A program made the translations under genes and the position numbers. A model generated the notes under the pieces. That model was given only the letters and a program-made list of their open reading frames with translations. It was not told where the DNA came from and searched no databases. A stretch of DNA of 51,479 nucleotides from a virus (lineage: Duplodnaviria > Heunggongvirae > Uroviricota > Caudoviricetes): the IMG/VR virus record IMGVR_UViG_3300045988_007046, positions 1-51,479 of that record; one strand, written 5' to 3'. Positions 11,730 to 17,830 of this stretch are shown piece after piece; the first letter of the stretch is position 1; each line of letters starts with the position of its first letter.

Positions 11730-12101
11730 ATGAAAAACAGAACAAACAAAGGCCAGTTTAAAAAAGGCCAGTCTGGAAACCCATCTGGAAGACCAAAAGG
11801 CTCTCGTAACAAAAGCTCACTTGTAAAAGCTCAACTGACCATTGATAATTCTGCTGAGTTTGCTGCAAAGTTGTTTGAGGCGGTTGTTACAAGGGATGCT
11901 GCTAAGCTTGCAGAGTTCGGTTTGACGACTGACGATGTAAACCTGAAGTCGATGATGGAGGCTGGTAAAACCATCATGACTCACTCAGCAGGTGAGATGA
12001 AAGCGATTGCAGCAGACACTAAGAAGACCCCTGATAATGGTGGTCAGTCTCAGACAGATAACAAACCAACGTTCTCTGCTGTAGCGACTCTCAAAAAATA
12101 A
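11730..12101 (+). CDS. hypothetical small basic protein (possible DNA-binding)
   Basis: 123 aa; N-terminus KGQFKKGQSGNPSGRPKGSRNK is strongly basic and Gly/Pro-rich. Confidence 0.5.
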   Translation: MKNRTNKGQFKKGQSGNPSGRPKGSRNKSSLVKAQLTIDNSAEFAAKLFEAVVTRDAAKLAEFGLTTDDVNLKSMMEAGKTIMTHSAGEMKAIAADTKKTPDNGGQSQTDNKPTFSAVATLKK

Positions 12102-12105
12102 TTTT

Positions 12106-12150
12106 AAAAGGTGTTGACAGACTCTACAAAGTTGCTCTAAAGTCTGTCAC
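12106..12150 (+). promoter_or_regulatory. sigma70-like promoter candidate overlapping an 8-bp inverted repeat
   Basis: AAAAGGTGTTGACA with TTGACA at 12114-12119, TAAAGT about 18 nt downstream; GACAGACT...AGTCTGTC inverted repeat spans the core. Confidence 0.45.
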
Positions 12151-12182
12151 ATCAACAAACAAATGAGAGAAGAGAGTAAAAT

Positions 12183-13598
12183 ATGAGCGAATTATTTAAA
12201 CATGCGCACCTTCATGCAGGTCGAACTGAAAATGGTGCTGTAAACCATACTTCATCAATGTCTGCTCTTGTAGACTTTTACAAAGCTGCTGGTTCAAGCC
12301 GTAGCAACGTAGAAATCTTACCAGACCTGTTCTACAAAGCTTTGCGTGAGGATGTTGATGTTGCAGTTCGTATTTTGCTTCATATGCGAGATGTACGAGA
12401 AGGTATGGGTGAGCGTAAAGCCTTCAGAACTGTTTTACTTCAAGCGATTGAAGACAAAGTTTTAGAGCCTACGCAGGTTCTTCGCATTATGGATAAGATT
12501 GCAGAACTTGGTCGTTTTGATGACTTCAAAATCTTCGTAGGTACTCGTTTCGAGACAGATGCCTTCAAACATCTAGAAGCAGCATTACTAGACCCTGCAA
12601 CAGCAGGTTTGGCGGCTAAGTGGTTACCACGAGTCAAACCACGTCATAAGCAGTTTGTAAAACGTTTCTGCAAGTTTGCCAACTTGAGTGAGAAAGAGTA
12701 CCGCACACTGTTGTCTGCACTATCTGATACAGTTGAGCAAAAAATCTCTGCTAATGAGTTTGGTAAGATTGACTACAGTAAGATTCCTTCACTTGCTGCT
12801 GCACGTTACCAAAAACTGTTTAACCGCAAAGATGGAGAACGCTACAAAGCTTACATCGAGTCCTTATCAAAGGGTGAGACTAAGATTAATGCTGGTGCTG
12901 TTTACCCATACGATGTAATTAAATCTGTTAAGCATGGTAATGCAGATGTTGCTAATGAGCAGTGGAAAGCACTACCAAACTGGATGGCAGAGGGTGAAAA
13001 CATCTTGTGTATGTCTGATGTTTCAAGCTCAATGTCTTGGGTGAATTTTGGTTCAATTACTGCTCTTGATATTGGTGTTTCACTTGCATTGTATGTAGCA
13101 GAACGTAATACAGGTTGCTTTAAGAATGAGTTGATGGTTTATTCAACAAACCCTCACTTCATCGAACTGAGTGGTGATTTACGAAACCGTCATCGTCAGG
13201 TGATGCGACACGTTGAATATGGCTCAACTAACTTACAAGCAGCTTTTGACCGTATTCTTGAAACAGGTAAAAGAAACAACTTGACTCAGAAAGATATGCC
13301 AAGTAAGCTTATCATCTTCTCCGATATGGAGTTCAATCAGGTTGATGGAGCTAACGGTCGTACAAACTTTGAAGCAATTCGTAGTAAGTACAAAAAAGCT
13401 GGATACGAAATGCCTCAACTGGTATTCTGGTACTTAGCAAACCGTAATGGTACTTGCGAAGTGTCTGTTAAGGATAACGGTGTAGCAATGGTATCTGGTT
13501 TTTCTCCAGCTACTTTAAAAGCTCTGCTTGGTGGTGAGAAGTTTGACCCAATCAGCGTAATGCTCAAAGCAGTAATGATTGACCGTTATATCTGGTAA
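12183..13598 (+). CDS. vWA-domain protein, possibly Ro60/TROVE-like RNA-binding protein
   Basis: 471 aa; MIDAS-like D-x-S-x-S (MSDVSSSMSW) followed by vWA-like strands (ELMVYS, GSTNLQAAF, KLIIFSDMEF, GVAMVSGFS) whose order resembles the Ro60 C-terminal vWA domain; helical N-terminal region. Confidence 0.4.
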   Translation: MSELFKHAHLHAGRTENGAVNHTSSMSALVDFYKAAGSSRSNVEILPDLFYKALREDVDVAVRILLHMRDVREGMGERKAFRTVLLQAIEDKVLEPTQVLRIMDKIAELGRFDDFKIFVGTRFETDAFKHLEAALLDPATAGLAAKWLPRVKPRHKQFVKRFCKFANLSEKEYRTLLSALSDTVEQKISANEFGKIDYSKIPSLAAARYQKLFNRKDGERYKAYIESLSKGETKINAGAVYPYDVIKSVKHGNADVANEQWKALPNWMAEGENILCMSDVSSSMSWVNFGSITALDIGVSLALYVAERNTGCFKNELMVYSTNPHFIELSGDLRNRHRQVMRHVEYGSTNLQAAFDRILETGKRNNLTQKDMPSKLIIFSDMEFNQVDGANGRTNFEAIRSKYKKAGYEMPQLVFWYLANRNGTCEVSVKDNGVAMVSGFSPATLKALLGGEKFDPISVMLKAVMIDRYIW

Positions 13599-13609
13599 AA
13601 AGTTTTAAA

Positions 13610-13646
13610 AAGGGTATTGACAATGTGTTTGATGCCCTTTAATATG
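13610..13646 (+). promoter_or_regulatory. sigma70-like promoter candidate
   Basis: AAAAAGGGTATTGACA with TTGACA at 13617-13622, 17-nt spacer, TAATAT at 13640-13645. Confidence 0.5.
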
Positions 13647-13699
13647 TTCTACATAGAAACGAAACGAGAGCTTTTCTAAGATACTGAAAAATATTTTAA

Positions 13700-13738
13700 A
13701 AAAGTTCTTGACAACCACTAAAAAATAATGTTAAAGTG
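13700..13738 (+). promoter_or_regulatory. sigma70-like promoter candidate upstream of the tRNA array
   Basis: AAAAAGTTCTTGACA with TTGACA at 13708-13713, TAAAGT at 13732-13737. Confidence 0.45.
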
Positions 13739-13763
13739 GTTACATAGAGTTTGAAAAGTTTAT

Positions 13764-13840
13764 CTCTGTTTAGCTCAGCTTGGTAGAGCGTTCCGTTTGG
13801 GGCGGTAAGGCCGGAGGTTCAAGTCCTCCAACAGAGACCA
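13764..13840 (+). tRNA. tRNA-Pro (anticodon TGG)
   Basis: Hand-folded: acceptor CTCTGTT/AACAGAG with C1-G72, T-arm GGAGG-TTCAAGT-CCTCC, anticodon loop TTTGGGG, CCA encoded. Confidence 0.65.
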
Positions 13841-13847
13841 AATTAAT

Positions 13848-13925
13848 GTTCCAGTAGACAAAATGGTAAAGTCACCACTCTTTCAAAGTGGATATCTGAG
13901 GGTTCAAATCCCTTCTGGAACGCCA
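13848..13925 (+). tRNA. tRNA-Glu (anticodon TTC)
   Basis: Acceptor GTTCCAG/CTGGAAC, anticodon arm CCACT-CTTTCAA-AGTGG, T-loop TTCAAAT, CCA encoded. Confidence 0.75.
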
Positions 13926-13930
13926 GTTTT

Positions 13931-14004
13931 GACAGAAGACCAATTACAGCAAACTTAATCTACTCATCTGACACGAAATCGGACAAAGAAGATATTTGGT
14001 CTGG
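13931..14004 (+). ncRNA. structured spacer element E1 (CAGAAGACC...GGTCTGG family)
   Basis: 5' GACAGAAGACCAA pairs with 3' TTGGTCTGG; conserved internal ACAGCAA. Confidence 0.35.
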
Positions 14005-14015
14005 TCATTGAGAAT

Positions 14016-14092
14016 TGCGGGTATAGAGAAAGGGCGTCTCACATGTCTCATTAGCATGGTATCGGCAGGTTCGACTCCTGCACCCGCCTCCA
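14016..14092 (+). tRNA. tRNA with CAT anticodon (Met or Ile2), with a 1-72 mismatch
   Basis: Acceptor TGCGGGT/ACCCGCC (U1 opposite C72), anticodon arm CATGT-CTCATTA-GCATG, T-arm GCAGG-TTCGACT-CCTGC, CCA encoded. Confidence 0.55.
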
Positions 14093-14097
14093 ATTTT

Positions 14098-14158
14098 GCA
14101 GAAGACCGTATTCAGCAACAAAATACTTTTTGCGGATAAAAGAAAAAACACGGTCTGG
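14098..14158 (+). ncRNA. structured spacer element E2 (CAGAAGACC...GGTCTGG family)
   Basis: 5' GCAGAAGACCGT pairs with 3' ACGGTCTGG; internal TTCAGCAA. Confidence 0.35.
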
Positions 14159-14169
14159 CAATGTATTAA

Positions 14170-14246
14170 GGTTAGGAAGCACATAAGGTATGTGCGGTCG
14201 CCTGTTAAGCGAATGGCACAGGGTTCGAATCCCTGACTAACCGCCA
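14170..14246 (+). tRNA. tRNA-Asn (anticodon GTT)
   Basis: Acceptor GGTTAGG/ACTAACC, D-arm GCAC/GTGC, anticodon loop CTGTTAA, T-arm CAGGG-TTCGAAT-CCCTG, CCA encoded. Confidence 0.7.
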
Positions 14247-14255
14247 AATTTAAAT

Positions 14256-14343
14256 GTGTCGTTATCCCGTAGATGGTAGCGGTGGGGACTGTAAATCCCT
14301 TGTCATTGAGACTCGGTAGGTTCGACTCCTACACGACACACCA
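14256..14343 (+). tRNA. tRNA-Tyr (anticodon GTA), long variable arm
   Basis: Acceptor GTGTCGT/ACGACAC, anticodon arm GGGGA-CTGTAAA-TCCCT, long variable arm, T-arm GTAGG-TTCGACT-CCTAC, CCA encoded. Confidence 0.75.
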
Positions 14344-14348
14344 ATAAA

Positions 14349-14426
14349 GGTTATGTAGTTTAATTTGGTTAAAATACTCCCCTGTCACGGGAGATGATGA
14401 GGGTTCAAATCCCTTCGTAACCGCCA
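14349..14426 (+). tRNA. tRNA-Asp (anticodon GTC)
   Basis: Acceptor GGTTATG/CGTAACC, anticodon arm CTCCC-CTGTCAC-GGGAG, T-loop TTCAAAT, CCA encoded. Confidence 0.75.
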
Positions 14427-14432
14427 ATTTTG

Positions 14433-14478
14433 AGAGGGCTATTTAGCCCCTCCCTTAAAGAGTTCTTACGAGTATTCT
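14433..14478 (+). promoter_or_regulatory. paired hairpins in a tRNA spacer (possible processing or termination signal)
   Basis: GGGCT-ATTT-AGCCC hairpin followed by CCCTTAAAGA...TCTTTAAGGG inverted repeat enclosing GTTCTTACGAG. Confidence 0.4.
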
Positions 14479-14487
14479 TTAAGGGAG

Positions 14488-14561
14488 CAGAAGACCAAAT
14501 ACAGCAAGAATGTATGAAATTTCAAGCCAATTTAATTTTGAAAATTTAAAACTTGGTCTGG
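14488..14561 (+). ncRNA. structured spacer element E3 (CAGAAGACC...GGTCTGG family)
   Basis: 5' CAGAAGACCAAA pairs with 3' ACTTGGTCTGG; internal ACAGCAA. Confidence 0.35.
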
Positions 14562-14574
14562 CTCAACAAATTTA

Positions 14575-14706
14575 CAGAAGACCGTTTACAGCAAAACTTA
14601 AACAATCTATTTCTCCGGTAAAGAAAAGGCGAAGGTTCGATTCCTTCACTCGGCAGATGTCGAGTTGGTGTAATGGTAGCACTTAAGATGATAAACAACG
14701 GTCTGG
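14575..14706 (+). ncRNA. structured element E4: CAGAAGACC...GGTCTGG closing helix enclosing a tRNA-like module (Y-RNA/YrlA-like candidate)
   Basis: Closing helix AGACCGTT (14579-14586) with AACGGTCT; inside: perfect T-arm GAAGG-TTCGATT-CCTTC (14631-14647), 7-bp hairpin ACTCGGC-AGAT-GTCGAGT (14648-14665), D-arm-like GTGT-AATGGTA-GCAC (14668-14682). Confidence 0.4.
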
Positions 14707-14707
14707 T

Positions 14708-14851
14708 AATTATCTTTGTAGATAAGTTATTAAGCTTACCTGTGAGTATGCGACCACAAAGGGTGAAAGGGTAAATTCTAGATTTAAACCCAAAAAGGCA
14801 CATCGCTACAGACCTTAAGCAAGTCTGGGTAGCTTATCTACAAAGATAATT
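14708..14851 (+). repeat. 19-bp perfect inverted repeat enclosing a ~106-nt segment
   Basis: AATTATCTTTGTAGATAAG (14708-14726) is the exact reverse complement of CTTATCTACAAAGATAATT (14833-14851); interior holds a CAGAC...GTCTG hairpin. Confidence 0.6.
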
Positions 14852-14855
14852 TAAT

Positions 14856-14931
14856 GGAAGTGTAGCAGAATGGTGATGCGGCAGACTTTTAATCTGACAG
14901 GCGATGGGTTCGAATCCCTCCACTTCTACCA
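14856..14931 (+). tRNA. tRNA-Lys (anticodon TTT)
   Basis: Acceptor GGAAGTG/CACTTCT with G1-U72, anticodon loop CTTTTAA, T-region ATGGG-TTCGAAT-CCCTC (only 3 clean T-stem pairs), CCA encoded. Confidence 0.6.
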
Positions 14932-14936
14932 AAAAT

Positions 14937-15013
14937 GGTTCAGTCGCAGATAAGGTAATGCAAGGGTTTCATAAGCCCTATGAATGTGGGTTCGATTCCC
15001 ACCTGAACCTCCA
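14937..15013 (+). tRNA. tRNA with CAT anticodon (Met or Ile2)
   Basis: Acceptor GGTTCAG/CTGAACC, anticodon arm AGGGT-TTCATAA-GCCCT, T-arm GTGGG-TTCGATT-CCCAC, CCA encoded. Confidence 0.7.
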
Positions 15014-15014
15014 A

Positions 15015-15090
15015 GCTGGTATAGTTAAGAAGGTTATAACACTCCCCTGATAAGGGAACATCGGTGGTTCGATTCCACCTACCAGTACCA
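15015..15090 (+). tRNA. tRNA-Ile (anticodon GAT)
   Basis: Acceptor GCTGGTA/TACCAGT, anticodon loop CTGATAA, T-arm GGTGG-TTCGATT-CCACC, CCA encoded; starts 1 nt after the preceding tRNA. Confidence 0.7.
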
Positions 15091-15097
15091 ATTTCAA

Positions 15098-15136
15098 TAA
15101 AGTTGTTGACATTGAGATGTGACTACTTTATAGTAA
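15098..15136 (+). promoter_or_regulatory. sigma70-like promoter candidate inside the tRNA array
   Basis: AATAAAGTTGTTGACA with TTGACA at 15106-15111, exact 17-nt spacer, TATAGT at 15129-15134. Confidence 0.55.
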
Positions 15137-15294
15137 CCTTAGTTTTCGTTGCGTAGCGTCTATTTTGCAAATTTAAAATAAATGCAAACGACAATGTTTT
15201 TCTGGCAGTAGCTTGATAGGCTAAACACCAGTGAGGTCTTCCAATCCCTCATCAAAGAATTTGGCGTACTCGCCCACGGTATGATTAATAAGGT

Positions 15295-15336
15295 GGGCAT
15301 CTTTAAGGGCTTTCTAAGAGAGTCTTTAAAGATAAT
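15295..15336 (+). promoter_or_regulatory. spacer hairpin (ATCTTTAA...TTAAAGAT inverted repeat)
   Basis: 8-bp inverted repeat enclosing GGGCTTTCTAAGAGAGTC; related to other spacer hairpins carrying TTCTTA/CTAAGA motifs. Confidence 0.35.
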
Positions 15337-15338
15337 TA

Positions 15339-15420
15339 CGGGGCGTATCTCAGCGGTCTTCTAAACCGCCGTTAACCGAGTAAGTGGAGTATGCGGGTTC
15401 GAGTCCTGCCGCCTCGACCA
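15339..15420 (+). ncRNA. atypical tRNA-like element (possible aberrant tRNA-Arg TCT or pseudo-tRNA)
   Basis: Good acceptor CGGGGCG/CGCCTCG, T-arm GCGGG-TTCGAGT-CCTGC and CCA, but the only anticodon-like hairpin GCGGT-CTTCTAA-ACCGC lies 7 nt after the acceptor (no room for a D-arm) and is followed by a 23-nt extra region. Confidence 0.3.
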
Positions 15421-15563
15421 ATTTAGTTAGCAGATTACTTAGACGACCTAAGCGTGTCTTCCTGTAAGGAGGTGGTCTGTATCTCATGTTTTCCAGAACA
15501 TGTAAATAATCTGAGAAGGGGCTTTACAGTGTTGCGAAAATACGGTAAGCTTCGAATTACAGT

Positions 15564-15646
15564 ATGGGACGATGTTAAGACTCTAAGGCATGAGCAACGG
15601 CCTCCAAAACCGTTTCAAAGGGGTTCAACTCCTCCGTCCCATGCCA
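15564..15646 (+). tRNA. tRNA-Trp-like (anticodon CCA) with extended D region
   Basis: Exact acceptor ATGGGAC/GTCCCAT, anticodon loop CTCCAAA (identical to canonical Trp loop), T-loop TTCAACT, CCA encoded; about 7 extra nt between acceptor and anticodon stem. Confidence 0.4.
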
Positions 15647-15659
15647 AAGTCTTATTAGG

Positions 15660-15750
15660 GGTAGGTAGCGGCTAATGGTAGCCAAACTGTCTTGAAAACA
15701 GTTGCCACTGTAGAGATACGGTGAGGGTTCGACTCCTTTACTTACCGCCT
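15660..15750 (+). tRNA. tRNA-Ser (anticodon TGA), long variable arm
   Basis: Acceptor GGTAGGT/ACTTACC, anticodon arm ACTGT-CTTGAAA-ACAGT, long variable arm, T-arm GAGGG-TTCGACT-CCTTT; 3' CCA only partly encoded. Confidence 0.65.
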
Positions 15751-15900
15751 AATAAGATTTACACCGTCCATGCTTGCTCGCATTTTCGGTTTATCCCTCG
15801 TGTATTGTCGTACACTGATAAAGCACCTAGTAGGTGTCACGGAGAAGAGATAATATCAAGCTCTCCAAAGGTTCTAGTCACCGGATTAAACAAGACTATG

Positions 15901-15925
15901 CAAAGACCTATTTAGGTCTTTTTAG
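15901..15925 (+). terminator. terminator-like hairpin inside the tRNA array
   Basis: AAAGACC-TATTT-AGGTCTTT followed by TTTTA. Confidence 0.4.
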
Positions 15926-16003
15926 AGGGCTTCTAAGGTTATTAGTCGCTTGTTGTGGAACCTTGTTGCTCAGGTTCTTAGAAGTTCTCTAAAAAGATTT
16001 AAT

Positions 16004-16335: not shown

Positions 16336-16411
16336 GCTCCTATCGTATAATTGGCTATTACGGTTGCCTTGTAAGCAACTTATCAGGGTTCGAATCCTTG
16401 TGGGAGCACCA
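16336..16411 (+). tRNA. tRNA-Thr (anticodon TGT)
   Basis: Acceptor GCTCCTA/TGGGAGC, anticodon arm GTTGC-CTTGTAA-GCAAC, T-arm CAGGG-TTCGAAT-CCTTG, CCA encoded. Confidence 0.75.
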
Positions 16412-16414
16412 ATT

Positions 16415-16502
16415 CAGAGGTCAAGTGAAAGACCGCTGGTGTCAACTGAAGACCGTAACAAATTCCACGGAGTTGAGTTAGCGGCACAACTTCAGACCTC
16501 TT
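16415..16502 (+). ncRNA. structured spacer element E5 (AGAGGTC...GACCTCT closing helix, internal GAAGACC motifs)
   Basis: CAGAGGTC at 16415-16422 pairs with GACCTCT at 16496-16502; interior has GAAAGACCG and TGAAGACCG plus CCGCT/AGCGG complementarity. Confidence 0.3.
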
Positions 16503-16506
16503 TCAT

Positions 16507-16581
16507 GCTCGCTTAGTTTATATGGTAAAACATCACCCTTACAAGATGAAGAAAAAGGTTCAAGTCCTTTAGTGAGTACCA
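16507..16581 (+). tRNA. tRNA-Val (anticodon TAC)
   Basis: Acceptor GCTCGCT/AGTGAGT (with G-U pairs), D-arm GTTT/AAAC, anticodon loop CTTACAA, T-arm AAAGG-TTCAAGT-CCTTT, CCA encoded. Confidence 0.65.
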
Positions 16582-17802: not shown

Positions 17803-17830
17803 TTCTAAGGGTTCTTACGAGAGTCCTTAA
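17803..17830 (+). promoter_or_regulatory. spacer hairpin carrying the GTTCTTACGAG motif
   Basis: CTAAGG-GTTCTTACGAGAGT-CCTTAA; same loop motif as the hairpin at 14445-14478. Confidence 0.4.

What the first reader, a model, noticed from the sequence alone, without database searches (positions are those of the whole stretch)
13931..14561. Family of at least four paralogous helix-closed spacer elements (CAGAAGACC...GGTCTGG)
Four elements (13931-14004, 14098-14158, 14488-14561, 14575-14706) begin with (G/A)CAGAAGACC(A/G) and end with a complementary (T/C)GGTCTGG, and share an internal ACAGCAA/TCAGCAA motif. The intervening 45-110 nt differ. This is the pattern of conserved closing helices with variable loops seen in small structured RNAs, not in promoters. 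Their interleaving with tRNAs suggests co-transcription and processing out of the array.
Basis: seen in the sequence. Interest (0 to 1): 0.7.

Follow-up and report, generated by a model that had tools for sequence, protein, structure and literature searches.

The report
Phage Y-like RNAs beside Ro60-like gene
The four helix-closed spacers in this Felix O1-type phage tRNA array are almost certainly small non-coding "Y-like" RNAs (one of them a tRNA mimic) that partner the Ro60-like RNA-binding protein encoded just upstream, and they belong to a previously unnamed RNA class found next to that protein in many unrelated phages.

Summary
CAGAAGACC occurs exactly four times in 51 kb, all within 650 nt on the + strand, and each copy is closed by GGTCTGG.

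All four elements fold the same way: a 4-bp outer helix with a different sequence in each copy, an AGA/G internal loop, a 7-8 bp helix, then unpaired UU-(A/U)CAGCAA and variable cargo. E4's cargo is a circularly permuted tRNA-like domain (V hairpin, T arm, loop-closed 7-bp acceptor stem, D arm). That is the architecture of bacterial YrlA Y RNAs.

The ORF 332 nt upstream (12183-13598; Pfam DUF2828+DUF7788) models as a Ro60/TROVE ring plus vWA domain; its top 12 PDB fold matches are all Ro60. It is the 98%-identical orthologue of Bas63 gp130. A 2024 preprint calls gp130 Ro60-like and a counter of the Ppl defence, and only guessed that Y RNAs might exist.

The same RNA module (WGR-helix, UWCAGCAA, YCW-G) lies beside homologous genes, on the gene strand, in phages of Escherichia, Citrobacter, Yersinia, Mycobacterium, Enterococcus, Listeria and Campylobacter and in many metagenomic contigs. 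Covariation is strong.

The module differs from canonical YrlA: it lacks the GNCGAAG motif, has no Rfam YrlA hit, and canonical TROVE loci lack it.

Verdict: a new variant of a known kind. Protein binding and function are inferred, not shown.

The parts
12183..13598 (+). Ro60-like protein gene (471 aa; Pfam DUF2828 + DUF7788; TROVE-like helical ring plus vWA domain with DxSxS MIDAS motif); orthologue of Bas63 gp130
   Evidence: Pfam. AF2 model pLDDT 84, pTM 0.84. Top 12 Foldseek PDB hits are all Ro60/Rsr/TROVE over the full length, E ~1e-8. Best profile-vs-PDB hit is Ro60 at the MIDAS motif. hhalign vs Bxz1 TROVE Ro60: 69% probability, E 4e-5. 98.3% identical to bas63_0130. D279/S281/S283 are invariant in the family.
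13617..13737 (+). Two sigma-70-type promoter-like sites (13617-13645 TTGACA-17-TAATAT; 13708-13737 TTGACA-18-TAAAGT) that would drive the tRNA/E array
   Evidence: No + strand terminator-like site within the array before the next promoter-like site at 15106. Function is inferred.
13930..14007 (+). E1, short Y-like RNA (78 nt). Outer helix 13930-13933/14004-14007; internal loop AGA (13934-13936) / G (14003); base helix AGACCAA 13937-13943 / TTGGTCT 13996-14002; unpaired UU-ACAGCAA 13944-13952; hairpin cargo
   Evidence: R1 hit 45.8 bits, E 1.8e-6. Lies between tRNA-Glu (ends 13925) and tRNA-Met (starts 14016).
14096..14161 (+). E2, short Y-like RNA (66 nt). Outer helix 14096-14099/14158-14161; base helix AGACCGT 14103-14109 / ACGGTCT 14150-14156; trailing G 14157; AU-UCAGCAA 14110-14118; cargo UUUGCGGAUAAAAGAAAA, shared with the first element of mycobacteriophage Rumpelstiltskin
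   Evidence: R1 hit 41.9 bits, E 1.3e-5. In orthologues the outer helix flips TGC/GCA to TAC/GTA.
14485..14564 (+). E3, short Y-like RNA (80 nt). Outer helix 14485-14488/14561-14564; base helix AGACCAA 14492-14498 / TTGGTCT 14553-14559; trailing G 14560; AU-ACAGCAA 14499-14507; conserved hairpin cargo UUUCAAGCCAAUUUAAUUUUGAAA
   Evidence: Found by the descriptor but not by model R1 at E<1.
14572..14709 (+). E4, YrlA-type Y-like RNA with a permuted tRNA-like domain (138 nt). Outer helix 14572-14575/14706-14709; base helix 14579-14585/14698-14704; UU-ACAGCAA 14586-14594; V hairpin 14610-14626; T arm 14631-14647 (loop UUCGAUU); acceptor 3' strand 14648-14654, loop AGAU 14655-14658, acceptor 5' strand 14659-14665; D arm 14668-14682 (loop AAUGGUA)
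   Evidence: R1 157 bits. Partial Rfam tRNA hit 14598-14648, 22 bits. Three different self-complementary acceptor stems occur among Ounavirinae orthologues.
13764..15090 (+). tRNA genes interleaved with E1-E4 (Pro, Glu | E1 | Met | E2 | Asn, Tyr, Asp | E3, E4 | Lys, Met, Ile). Their RNase P and 3'-end processing would release the E RNAs
   Evidence: ARAGORN and Rfam. Processing is inferred from established tRNA maturation.

Best explanation
E1-E4 are four paralogous small non-coding RNAs of the Y-RNA kind. They are the RNA partners of the Ro60-like (TROVE ring + vWA) protein encoded 332 nt upstream. Proposed mechanism, with each step marked shown or inferred. (1) Inferred: they are transcribed with the tRNAs from the promoter-like sites at 13.62 and 13.71 kb and released when RNase P and 3'-end processing cut out the flanking tRNAs; the outer and base helices protect their ends. 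(2) Shown by structure prediction and covariation: each folds into a terminal stem (outer helix, A-rich/G internal loop, 7-8 bp helix beginning W-G-R with an invariant G-C second pair). The stem is followed by an internal loop carrying the near-invariant single-stranded U-W-C-A-G-C-A-A, then variable cargo. (3) Inferred from the conserved genetic linkage and from the Ro60/Y RNA precedent: the stem plus UWCAGCAA module is the docking site for the Ro60-like protein, and the cargo specifies what the particle does. (4) Architecture shown, activity inferred: E4's cargo is a tRNA mimic (V, T, loop-closed 7-bp acceptor, D), as in YrlA. It probably engages tRNA-recognising enzymes. With a 7-bp acceptor stem it is a likely RNase P substrate, and several homologues encode N-CCA at the matching place. 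(5) Inferred from published work on orthologues and relatives: the RNP acts in RNA surveillance or anti-defence during infection. Bas63 gp130 counters the Ppl system, and Ro60/Y RNA complexes tether PNPase.
For: Motif and closure are far beyond chance. All four share a common fold, and the outer helix differs in sequence between copies while staying complementary. The neighbouring protein is Ro60-like: all top-12 PDB fold hits are Ro60/Rsr/phage Ro60, the best PDB profile hit is Ro60, hhalign links it to a canonical TROVE Ro60, and relatives are annotated 'Ro-like RNA binding protein' in mycobacteriophages. An unbiased 8-mer enrichment downstream of homologous genes in 75 distant loci returns TTACAGCAAA. 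The half-site WGR-N6-[AT]CAGCAA occurs 96 times on the gene strand and 7 on the other, never inside the gene, and mostly within 1 kb of it; 54 of 75 loci have at least one closed element. A strict descriptor gives 28 elements against 0.5 expected. A covariance model trained only on 8 Ounavirinae E4 sequences finds 45 hits at E<1 in phage loci. All are on the gene strand, and they include Rumpelstiltskin at 41.9 bits. It also finds strong hits in an Enterococcus phage (61.4 bits) and one in Listeria A511, and 11 of 11 hits on the gene strand in independent genome contigs. Covariation. G.U versus A.C is 53:11. E4's order V-T-AS-D equals the published YrlA order, and a 7-bp acceptor stem is what made M. 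smegmatis YrlA an RNase P and CCA-adding substrate (PMC4201824). N-CCA starts the acceptor loop in at least 4 of 23 tRNA-like members against ~0.4 expected. The PhageMaP preprint reports that Bas63 gp130 is Ro60-like, counters Ppl, and that Y RNAs were only suspected (10.1101/2024.10.10.617714). A phage Ro60 binds adjacent Y-like RNAs and host PNPase (PMC12135203).
Against: No transcript, processing or binding data exist for these RNAs; everything beyond sequence, fold and linkage is inference. The canonical Ro60-binding motif GNCGAAN0-1G is absent. Rfam YrlA (RF02553) and Y_RNA give no hit at E<=10, although RF02553 does detect a canonical phage YrlA. The protein does not match Pfam TROVE by sequence. 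21 of 75 distant loci have no detectable element within the fetched flanks. The alignment behind one search was fitted to the model, which inflates pairing. With the loose closure criterion, chance closure is already 45%.
Confidence: 0.8

Rival explanations
1. The elements are only processing or punctuation hairpins of the polycistronic tRNA precursor (for example RNase III/E entry sites or spacers that insulate tRNA folding), with no dedicated protein partner and no function once excised.
For: They sit exactly between tRNAs. Other stable hairpins of different types also occupy spacers in this array.
Against: The same module occurs next to the Ro60-like gene where no tRNA is annotated within 3 kb (Rumpelstiltskin). 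It also occurs directly before the gene's ribosome-binding site in other lineages. A single-stranded 8-nt motif is near-invariant across phages of at least 4 host phyla. One paralogue per locus carries an elaborate tRNA mimic. None of this is expected of generic spacers.
Confidence: 0.07
2. They are DNA-level repeats: inverted-repeat mobile elements, recombination sites (attC-like) or homing-endonuclease targets that shuffle tRNA gene cassettes.
For: They have terminal inverted repeats with a variable centre. tRNA content between E2 and E3 varies among relatives (spacing differences). The ~20-nt identical 5' ends could promote recombination.
Against: Strand specificity is strong, 96 vs 7. G.U is tolerated but A.C is not, 53 vs 11. 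Compensatory changes occur in interior helices (T, acceptor, D arms) that are irrelevant to a DNA site. Positions are conserved and syntenic in all Felixounavirus contigs, not scattered copies. No further copies are found elsewhere in the 51-kb window.
Confidence: 0.03
3. The module is primarily a cis-acting operator: the Ro60-like protein binds it in mRNA or precursor RNA to regulate its own synthesis or tRNA maturation, so the elements do not form a trans-acting RNP.
For: In several other phage lineages a minimal hairpin with the same module lies immediately 5' of the gene's Shine-Dalgarno sequence (L082, L088, L093, L107, L117, L147, Campylobacter Los1).
Against: In this window all four copies are downstream of the gene and separated from it by promoters. 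The gene's own leader has no such hairpin. The elaborate cargo (tRNA mimic) is not needed for an operator. This reading still requires protein binding, so it overlaps the main explanation.
Confidence: 0.06
4. E4 is a circularly permuted or split tRNA gene that yields a decoding tRNA after processing, and E1-E3 are its decayed paralogues.
For: E4 has the order 3' half then 5' half, with a perfect 7-bp acceptor stem, canonical T and D loops and a long variable arm. N-CCA is encoded in some homologues.
Against: There is no anticodon stem-loop: that position is occupied by the base helix and the RNA termini in every member. ARAGORN finds no tRNA there. No RNA ligase step is known in this system, and window E4 lacks an encoded CCA.
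Confidence: 0.03

Closest known systems
Bacterial/phage YrlA and YrlB Y RNAs bound by Rsr (Ro60 orthologue); Rfam RF02553; Chen et al. 2014, PMC4201824
   Same: Encoded within ~1 kb of a Ro60-type gene on the same strand. Several paralogues per locus. The 5' and 3' ends pair into a stem followed by a large internal loop. One paralogue (E4) carries a tRNA-like domain in the identical order V, T arm, acceptor stem-loop, D arm; the short ones (E1-E3) parallel YrlB. [quoted passage not shown]
   Different: The published 5' motif GNCGAAN0-1G is absent. Instead there is a W-G-R helix start, an invariant G-C pair, a trailing 3' G and single-stranded UWCAGCAA. Rfam YrlA gives no hit here but does hit a canonical phage YrlA; conversely my model finds nothing at the canonical Bxz1 locus. 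The partner protein is Pfam DUF2828+DUF7788, not TROVE+vWA_Ro60. The RNAs are embedded in a tRNA array.
Thermus phage phiLo Ro60 with Yrl1/Yrl2 (PMC12135203; PDB 9KOP, 9L5Y)
   Same: A phage-encoded Ro60-type ring protein with two or more adjacent Y-like RNAs. The proposed role is hijacking host PNPase for counter-defence. The phiLo protein is among the best fold matches of the window protein.
   Different: The phiLo RNAs were picked by the CGAA motif and lie upstream of the gene. The RNAs here lack CGAA, lie downstream among tRNAs, and include a tRNA mimic.
Metazoan Y RNAs (Rfam RF00019) bound by Ro60
   Same: Size range (66-138 nt vs 80-130 nt), a terminal stem with a conserved bulge or internal loop as the presumed protein site, a large internal loop, and multiple paralogues.
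   Different: No sequence similarity to the GGUCCGA/bulged-C helix, no Rfam hit, and bacterial-type transcription inside a tRNA operon instead of Pol III genes.
Bas63 (Felixounavirus) gp130, Ro60-like counter of the Ppl defence (preprint 10.1101/2024.10.10.617714)
   Same: The same gene (98.3% identity) in the same position upstream of the tRNA block.
   Different: The preprint only speculated that some annotated tRNA genes might be Y RNAs. The candidates identified here are unannotated spacers between the tRNAs, not the tRNAs themselves.
Circularly permuted tRNA genes and two-piece tmRNAs (own knowledge, not tested here)
   Same: The 3' half precedes the 5' half, with the acceptor ends joined by a short linker.
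   Different: Those mature into functional tRNA or tmRNA. E4 has no anticodon arm or tag reading frame, and its ends are locked in the protein-binding stem.

Membership tests
YrlA-type Y RNA (Chen et al. 2014; Rfam RF02553) | Encoded within ~4 kb of a Ro60 orthologue, on the same strand | tested here: met
   E1 starts 332 nt and E4 ends 1.1 kb after the stop codon of the Ro60-like ORF, on the same strand. The same linkage is seen in distant loci.
YrlA-type Y RNA (Chen et al. 2014; Rfam RF02553) | tRNA-like domain in the order V stem-loop, T arm, acceptor stem-loop, D arm, enclosed by a stem formed by the RNA's ends | tested here: met
   Met for E4 only, with covariation in all helices across 45 members. 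E1-E3 lack it, like YrlB.
YrlA-type Y RNA (Chen et al. 2014; Rfam RF02553) | GNCGAAN0-1G motif near the 5' end (presumed Rsr-binding site) | tested here: not met
   E1-E4 read (G/A)CAGAAGACC, one mismatch from GNCGAAG, and the wider family reads AAAGR. The canonical Bxz1 RNAs do show GGCCGAAGG.
YrlA-type Y RNA (Chen et al. 2014; Rfam RF02553) | Match to the Rfam covariance model | tested here: not met
   No YrlA or Y_RNA hit at gathering score or at E<=10 over 13600-16000. RF02553 does hit Bxz1 at 32.5 bits, which is itself below the gathering score of 69.
YrlA-type Y RNA (Chen et al. 2014; Rfam RF02553) | [quoted passage not shown] | not testable with these tools
   Requires RIP/EMSA, modification mapping and RNase P assays.
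Ro60 / TROVE protein family (the partner protein) | Ring of HEAT-like helical repeats followed by a vWA domain with a MIDAS motif | tested here: met
   Confident AF2 model. Full-length Foldseek matches to Ro60 from frog, human, Deinococcus and Thermus phage. The DxSxS motif is invariant and aligns to the Ro60 MIDAS motif.
Ro60 / TROVE protein family (the partner protein) | Match to Pfam TROVE (PF05731) / vWA_Ro60 (PF25045) | tested here: not met
   Only DUF2828 and DUF7788 are reported at E<=0.01. Bxz1 gp220 matches both TROVE families.
Transfer RNA (for E4) | Contiguous cloverleaf with an anticodon stem-loop and 5'/3' ends in the acceptor stem | tested here: not met
   ARAGORN finds none at 14572-14709. 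Rfam tRNA gives only a partial 22-bit hit. The acceptor stem is loop-closed and the anticodon arm is replaced by the base helix.
DNA-level inverted-repeat element (MITE / attC-like / nuclease site) | Strand-symmetric conservation; no requirement for G.U-compatible changes; dispersed or polymorphic copies | tested here: not met
   Strand bias 96:7, G.U:A.C 53:11, and fixed syntenic positions in all relatives.

The most novel reading that the evidence does not exclude
The UWCAGCAA-stem RNAs and the DUF2828-type Ro60-like proteins may constitute a distinct, ancient and very widespread phage ribonucleoprotein. There are 710 GenBank phage records and more than 2,500 metagenomic protein clusters, with hosts spanning Proteobacteria, Actinobacteria, Firmicutes and Campylobacterota. 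The system is genetically coupled to phage tRNA arrays. Its tRNA-mimic member would be cut by RNase P and carry CCA, giving a two-piece acceptor-end mimic docked on the ring. The particle would work as an anti-defence or tRNA-pool-protection device, for example as a decoy or sensor for tRNA-directed nucleases or as a recruiter of host PNPase. That would explain why Bas63 needs gp130 to escape Ppl.
Probability: 0.3. Interest if true: 0.85.

Novelty: new variant of a known kind. Interest (0 to 1): 0.62.

Why it matters
Ro60/Y RNA particles are known from animals, some bacteria and a handful of phages, but their function in phages is open. A 2024 genetic screen showed that the Felixounavirus Ro60-like protein is needed to overcome a host defence (Ppl), and it could only guess at RNA partners.

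This analysis pins down four concrete candidate RNAs with exact coordinates. It defines the conserved module a protein would recognise. It also shows that the same module accompanies this protein family across hundreds of phages, usually beside their tRNA genes.

That makes the mechanism directly testable by RIP, EMSA and deletion of E1-E4 in Bas63. It adds an RNA class missing from Rfam. It also explains recurrent mis-annotation of these spacers as tiny antisense 'hypothetical proteins'.

Tried and rejected
- **Motif scan of viral contigs.** The 45 single-match loci were chance hits; none is closed by GGTCTGG.
- **Loose helix descriptor.** With at least 7 bp, one G.U allowed and any register, it was uninformative (54 found vs ~34 by chance). 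The 6-of-7 closure criterion also closes 45% of shuffled controls. I therefore relied on strand bias, the strict descriptor and the covariance model.
- **Ideas from reading the helix.** Kink-turn: no tandem G.A on the 3' strand. Archaeal bulge-helix-bulge splice site: bulge geometry is wrong and no such endonuclease exists in bacteria. sigma-54 or sigma-70 promoter in the motif: spacing does not fit. attC-like recombination site: see the DNA-level rival explanation.
- **Rfam.** Gathering thresholds and E<=10 gave nothing beyond tRNAs and weak tmRNA-like hits, in the window and in 14 distant loci.
- **Single-sequence search of the protein against PDB sequences.** Nothing useful.
- **MAFFT alignment of distant tRNA-like members.** It misaligned their 3' halves, so I replaced it with a model-based alignment.
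- **Literature.** Searches for DUF2828, for ACAGCAA with 'Y RNA' and for Felix O1 non-coding RNAs or transcriptomes gave nothing relevant. The 2020 Annual Review on bacterial Ro60 and the supplements of Chen et al. 2014 are not held. I therefore cannot exclude that some DUF2828-type phage loci were in their list of 22 phages.
- **Model R1 and E3.** R1 did not recover E3 at E<1, although E3 meets the descriptor.
Full report
**Where we are.** The window is a Felix O1-type myovirus (genus Felixounavirus): 13600-15100 is 99.5% identical to Escherichia phage ASO1A, and 236 phage records cover it. The finding lies at the start of a 25-gene tRNA array on the + strand.

**Checking the observation.** CAGAAGACC occurs exactly four times in 51.5 kb, at 13933, 14099, 14488 and 14575, all on the + strand. 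The gapped pattern closed by GGTCTGG matches three times against zero expected, and the longer fourth copy closes at 14699-14705.

RNA folding gives all four the same outline:
- a 4-bp outer helix whose sequence differs in each copy but stays complementary (TGAC/GTCA, TTGC/GCAA, GAGC/GCTC, TTAC/GTAA);
- an asymmetric internal loop, AGA on the 5' side and G on the 3' side;
- a 7-8 bp helix AGACC(A/G)N... / ...N(U/C)GGUCU, in which the A-U/G-C alternation between copies is itself compensatory;
- unpaired UU/AU-(A/U)CAGCAA, followed by variable cargo.

Refined coordinates are E1 13930-14007, E2 14096-14161, E3 14485-14564 and E4 14572-14709. Every Felixounavirus-sized contig recovered from IMG/VR carries the same four elements in the same order, with lengths of 73-85, 67-74, 80-85 and 130-140 nt. 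Single-hit contigs were chance matches.

**E4 is a tRNA mimic.** Its interior reads: V hairpin (14610-14626), T arm GAAGG-UUCGAUU-CCUUC (14631-14647), a 7-bp acceptor stem closed by the loop AGAU (ACUCGGC-AGAU-GUCGAGU, 14648-14665), UG, then a D arm with loop AAUGGUA (14668-14682). This is a circularly permuted tRNA body. The acceptor end is closed, and the anticodon arm is replaced by the element's closing stem. It is exactly the published architecture of YrlA, the tRNA-like Y RNA bound by bacterial Ro60 (Rsr): 5' motif, V, T, acceptor stem-loop, D, 3' end (PMC4201824).

**The neighbouring gene.**
- Sequence. The ORF 12183-13598 (471 aa) ends 332 nt before E1. Pfam sees only DUF2828 and DUF7788.
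- Fold. An AlphaFold2 model built on 30 homologues is confident (pLDDT 84, pTM 0.84). Its 12 best PDB matches are all Ro60 proteins aligned over the full length, at E about 1e-8 and TM 0.5-0.64: frog, human, Deinococcus Rsr and Thermus phage phiLo Ro60.
- Sequence-level links to Ro60. The family profile's best PDB sequence hit is also Ro60, at the vWA MIDAS motif. That DxSxS motif is invariant in the family. hhalign links the family to the canonical TROVE Ro60 of mycobacteriophage Bxz1 (69%, E 4e-5).
- Distribution. The family is large: more than 2,500 protein clusters and 710 GenBank phage records. These include mycobacteriophage proteins annotated 'Ro-like RNA binding protein' at 33% identity, E 3e-77.

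**Does the RNA travel with the protein?** I fetched 75 viral contigs encoding homologues at 39-47% identity.
- Its contexts share a fixed register: W-G-R-N4-(N)U-(A/U)CAGCAA, with the W-G-R-N4 segment complementary to a downstream N4-Y-C-W followed by G.
- The half-site occurs 96 times on the gene strand and 7 on the other. It is never inside the gene, and 68 of 79 closed elements lie within 1 kb of it. 54 of 75 loci have at least one.
- Closure of 82% of half-sites compares with 45% in a control where the 3' side is shuffled (z about 8). A stricter descriptor gives 28 against 0.5 expected, and none on the opposite strand.

Named phages show the same:
- Citrobacter phage Moogle has four elements.
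- Yersinia phage P778 has three.
- Mycobacteriophage Rumpelstiltskin has three directly after gp54, the middle one tRNA-like.
- Enterococcus phage vB_Edu_21C1, Listeria A511 and Campylobacter Los1 carry elements in the gap just upstream of the gene.

**A less circular test.** I trained a covariance model (R1) on eight Ounavirinae E4 sequences only, using a hand-assigned 26-pair structure.
- On those eight sequences, 99% of cells pair against about 40% when partners are slid. The acceptor stem exists in three unrelated self-complementary versions: ACUCGGC/GUCGAGU, ACACG/CGUGU and ACCCUUC/GAAGGGU.
- R1 then found 45 hits at E<1 in the distant loci, every one on the gene strand. They include L107 (68.6 bits), three in tandem in L085, and Rumpelstiltskin (41.9 bits).
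- Inspection showed that each hit has the base stem, a motif variant, and T, acceptor and D arms. None is a pair of adjacent tRNAs.
- R1 also hit the Enterococcus phage at 61.4 and 37.7 bits. In 80 independent genome or MAG contigs, 11 of 11 hits at E<0.1 were on the gene strand and within about 900 nt of the gene.
- On the 45-member alignment, 95% of cells pair against 36-46% when slid. 23 of 26 pairs show double compensatory changes, and the covariation score is 0.495 against 0.08 or less. The caveat is that this alignment is fitted to the model.
- G.U outnumbers A.C 53 to 11 (p = 1e-7). That is expected for an RNA read from this strand and not for a DNA inverted repeat.

Family consensus:
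- 5' side: A-rich flank, then A-G(invariant)-R-N4, then U-U(invariant)-W-C-A-G-C-A-A, with C, G, C and A invariant.
- 3' side: N4-Y-C(invariant)-U, then G (37 of 43).
- T loops read UUCGAWU and D loops contain GG.
- At least 4 of 23 tRNA-like members begin the acceptor 'loop' with N-CCA, for example Moogle's GCCAAACA. About 0.4 would be expected by chance. This suggests real 3'-end processing.

**How it differs from canonical Y RNAs.** Mycobacteriophage Bxz1 gp220 is a true Pfam TROVE + vWA_Ro60 protein. Its upstream gap holds YrlA/YrlB-like RNAs with GGCCGAAGG / GGCCGAGAG, the published GNCGAAN0-1G motif, and no UWCAGCAA. Rfam's YrlA model detects one of them (32.5 bits), while my model finds nothing there.

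The reverse holds for the window. Rfam finds no YrlA or Y_RNA in it even at E<=10. Rumpelstiltskin gp54, which carries UWCAGCAA RNAs, is DUF2828+DUF7788 like the window protein.

So there are two parallel pairings: TROVE with GNCGAAG RNAs, and DUF2828-type with UWCAGCAA RNAs. They share the overall plan, including one tRNA mimic per locus. Chen et al. searched only genomes annotated with a TROVE domain and reported 22 phages. Their supplementary list is not available to me.

**Mechanism (inference).** Two strong sigma-70-type promoter-like sites (13617-13645 and 13708-13737) precede tRNA-Pro, and the scan finds no + strand terminator-like site within the array before the next promoter at 15106. 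The E RNAs would therefore be made as part of the tRNA precursor. RNase P would cut at the next tRNA's 5' end and processing of the previous tRNA's 3' end would free them. The paired termini would protect them.

By analogy with Ro60/Y RNA complexes (PMC4201824; PMC12135203), the conserved stem and UWCAGCAA loop would dock on the Ro60-like ring and the variable cargo would recruit other factors. E4's 7-bp acceptor stem and T arm make it a probable RNase P substrate, as shown for M. smegmatis YrlA.

The biological role is probably RNA surveillance or counter-defence, given the Ppl phenotype of Bas63 gp130 and the recurrent placement of the gene beside phage tRNA arrays and tmRNAs. None of these steps has been tested.

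**Rivals.**
- Generic tRNA-processing hairpins do not explain the linkage to the protein where no tRNAs are nearby, nor the invariant single-stranded motif.
- DNA-level repeats are contradicted by the strand bias, the G.U pattern and the interior covariation.
- A purely cis-regulatory operator is plausible for the minimal hairpins that precede the gene's ribosome-binding site in other lineages. It does not fit these four copies, which lie downstream of the gene behind their own promoters; the gene's own leader has no such hairpin.
- A decoding permuted tRNA is excluded because E4 has no anticodon arm.

**Verdict.** These are new, unannotated members of a sequence-distinct variant class of Y-like RNAs, paired with a divergent Ro60-like protein. 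I put 0.8 on that identity. Protein binding and function remain to be shown.

Noticed in passing
window 14707-14855 (+): A 149-nt spacer between E4 and tRNA-Lys folds into a 24-bp stem closing a multi-branch structure (MFE -48.3 kcal/mol, z -7.2). It is conserved in two diverged versions in Felixounavirus/Mooglevirus, with 7 of 32 consensus pairs showing double compensatory changes. It contains a hairpin ACAGACC-UUAAGCAA-GUCUGGG. No Rfam match and function unknown. Bas63 annotates a tiny antisense CDS here.
   Followed up: partly
window 14449-14487 and 17803-17830 (+): Two copies of a stable hairpin with the shared loop UUCUUACGAG, after tRNA-Asp and after tRNA-Gln (the first has z -5.0). Similar 'CUUUAAGGG...UCUUUAAAG' hairpins occur near 15300 and 15920. 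They may be processing or termination signals of the array.
   Followed up: no
window 15032-15337 (+): Weak Rfam matches to tmRNA_permuted (29.2 bits, E 0.0017) and tmRNA (16 bits) in the 250-nt gap after tRNA-Ile, just downstream of a strong promoter-like site at 15106-15134. ARAGORN finds no tmRNA. Genuine tmRNAs sit near the Ro60-like gene in L104 and in Enterococcus phage vB_Edu_21C1.
   Followed up: no
window 15339-15417 (+): A tRNA detected by Rfam (31.7 bits) but missed by ARAGORN. Relatives annotate it as tRNA-Arg(tct).
   Followed up: no
L082:3963, L088:1773, L093:2868, L107:3959, L117:3912, L147:3916, L163:3931-4010, L162:3973: In other phage lineages a minimal 32-37-nt hairpin (longer in Campylobacter Los1) with the same WGR-stem/ACAGCAA module lies immediately 5' of the Shine-Dalgarno sequence of the Ro60-like gene. 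This suggests translational autoregulation by the protein. The window's own leader (12102-12182) lacks it.
   Followed up: partly
L085, L111, L125, L132, L161, L164 and others: The DUF2828-type Ro60-like gene lies beside a tRNA gene array on the same strand in many unrelated phages, including Listeria A511 and Enterococcus Schiekvirus, so the protein/Y-like RNA/tRNA-array linkage is general.
   Followed up: partly
window 14110-14148 vs L157:4457-4506: E2's cargo UUUGCGGAUAAAAGAAAA is nearly identical to the cargo of the first element of mycobacteriophage Rumpelstiltskin (UUUGCGGAUAACAAGAAAA). Other short members share a CGGA...AAAGAA segment, hinting at a second conserved functional site.
   Followed up: no
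window 12108-12150 and 13609-13640 (+): Both promoter-like sites (the one for the Ro60-like gene and the first one of the tRNA array) are embedded in 9-12-bp inverted repeats that span the -35 hexamer. These may be operator or attenuator structures.
   Followed up: no
window 16409-16508 (+): The spacer between tRNA-Thr and tRNA-Val folds into a long imperfect hairpin closed by AGAGGUC/GACCUCU (z -2.9). It contains CUGAAGACC, a one-mismatch copy of the E 5' motif, but no CAGCAA motif or GGUCUGG closure.
   Followed up: no
window 11730-12101 (+): A DUF5681 ORF immediately upstream of the Ro60-like gene is syntenic in Bas63, Moogle and Yersinia phage P778. It may be a functional partner; this was not examined in distant loci.
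   Followed up: no
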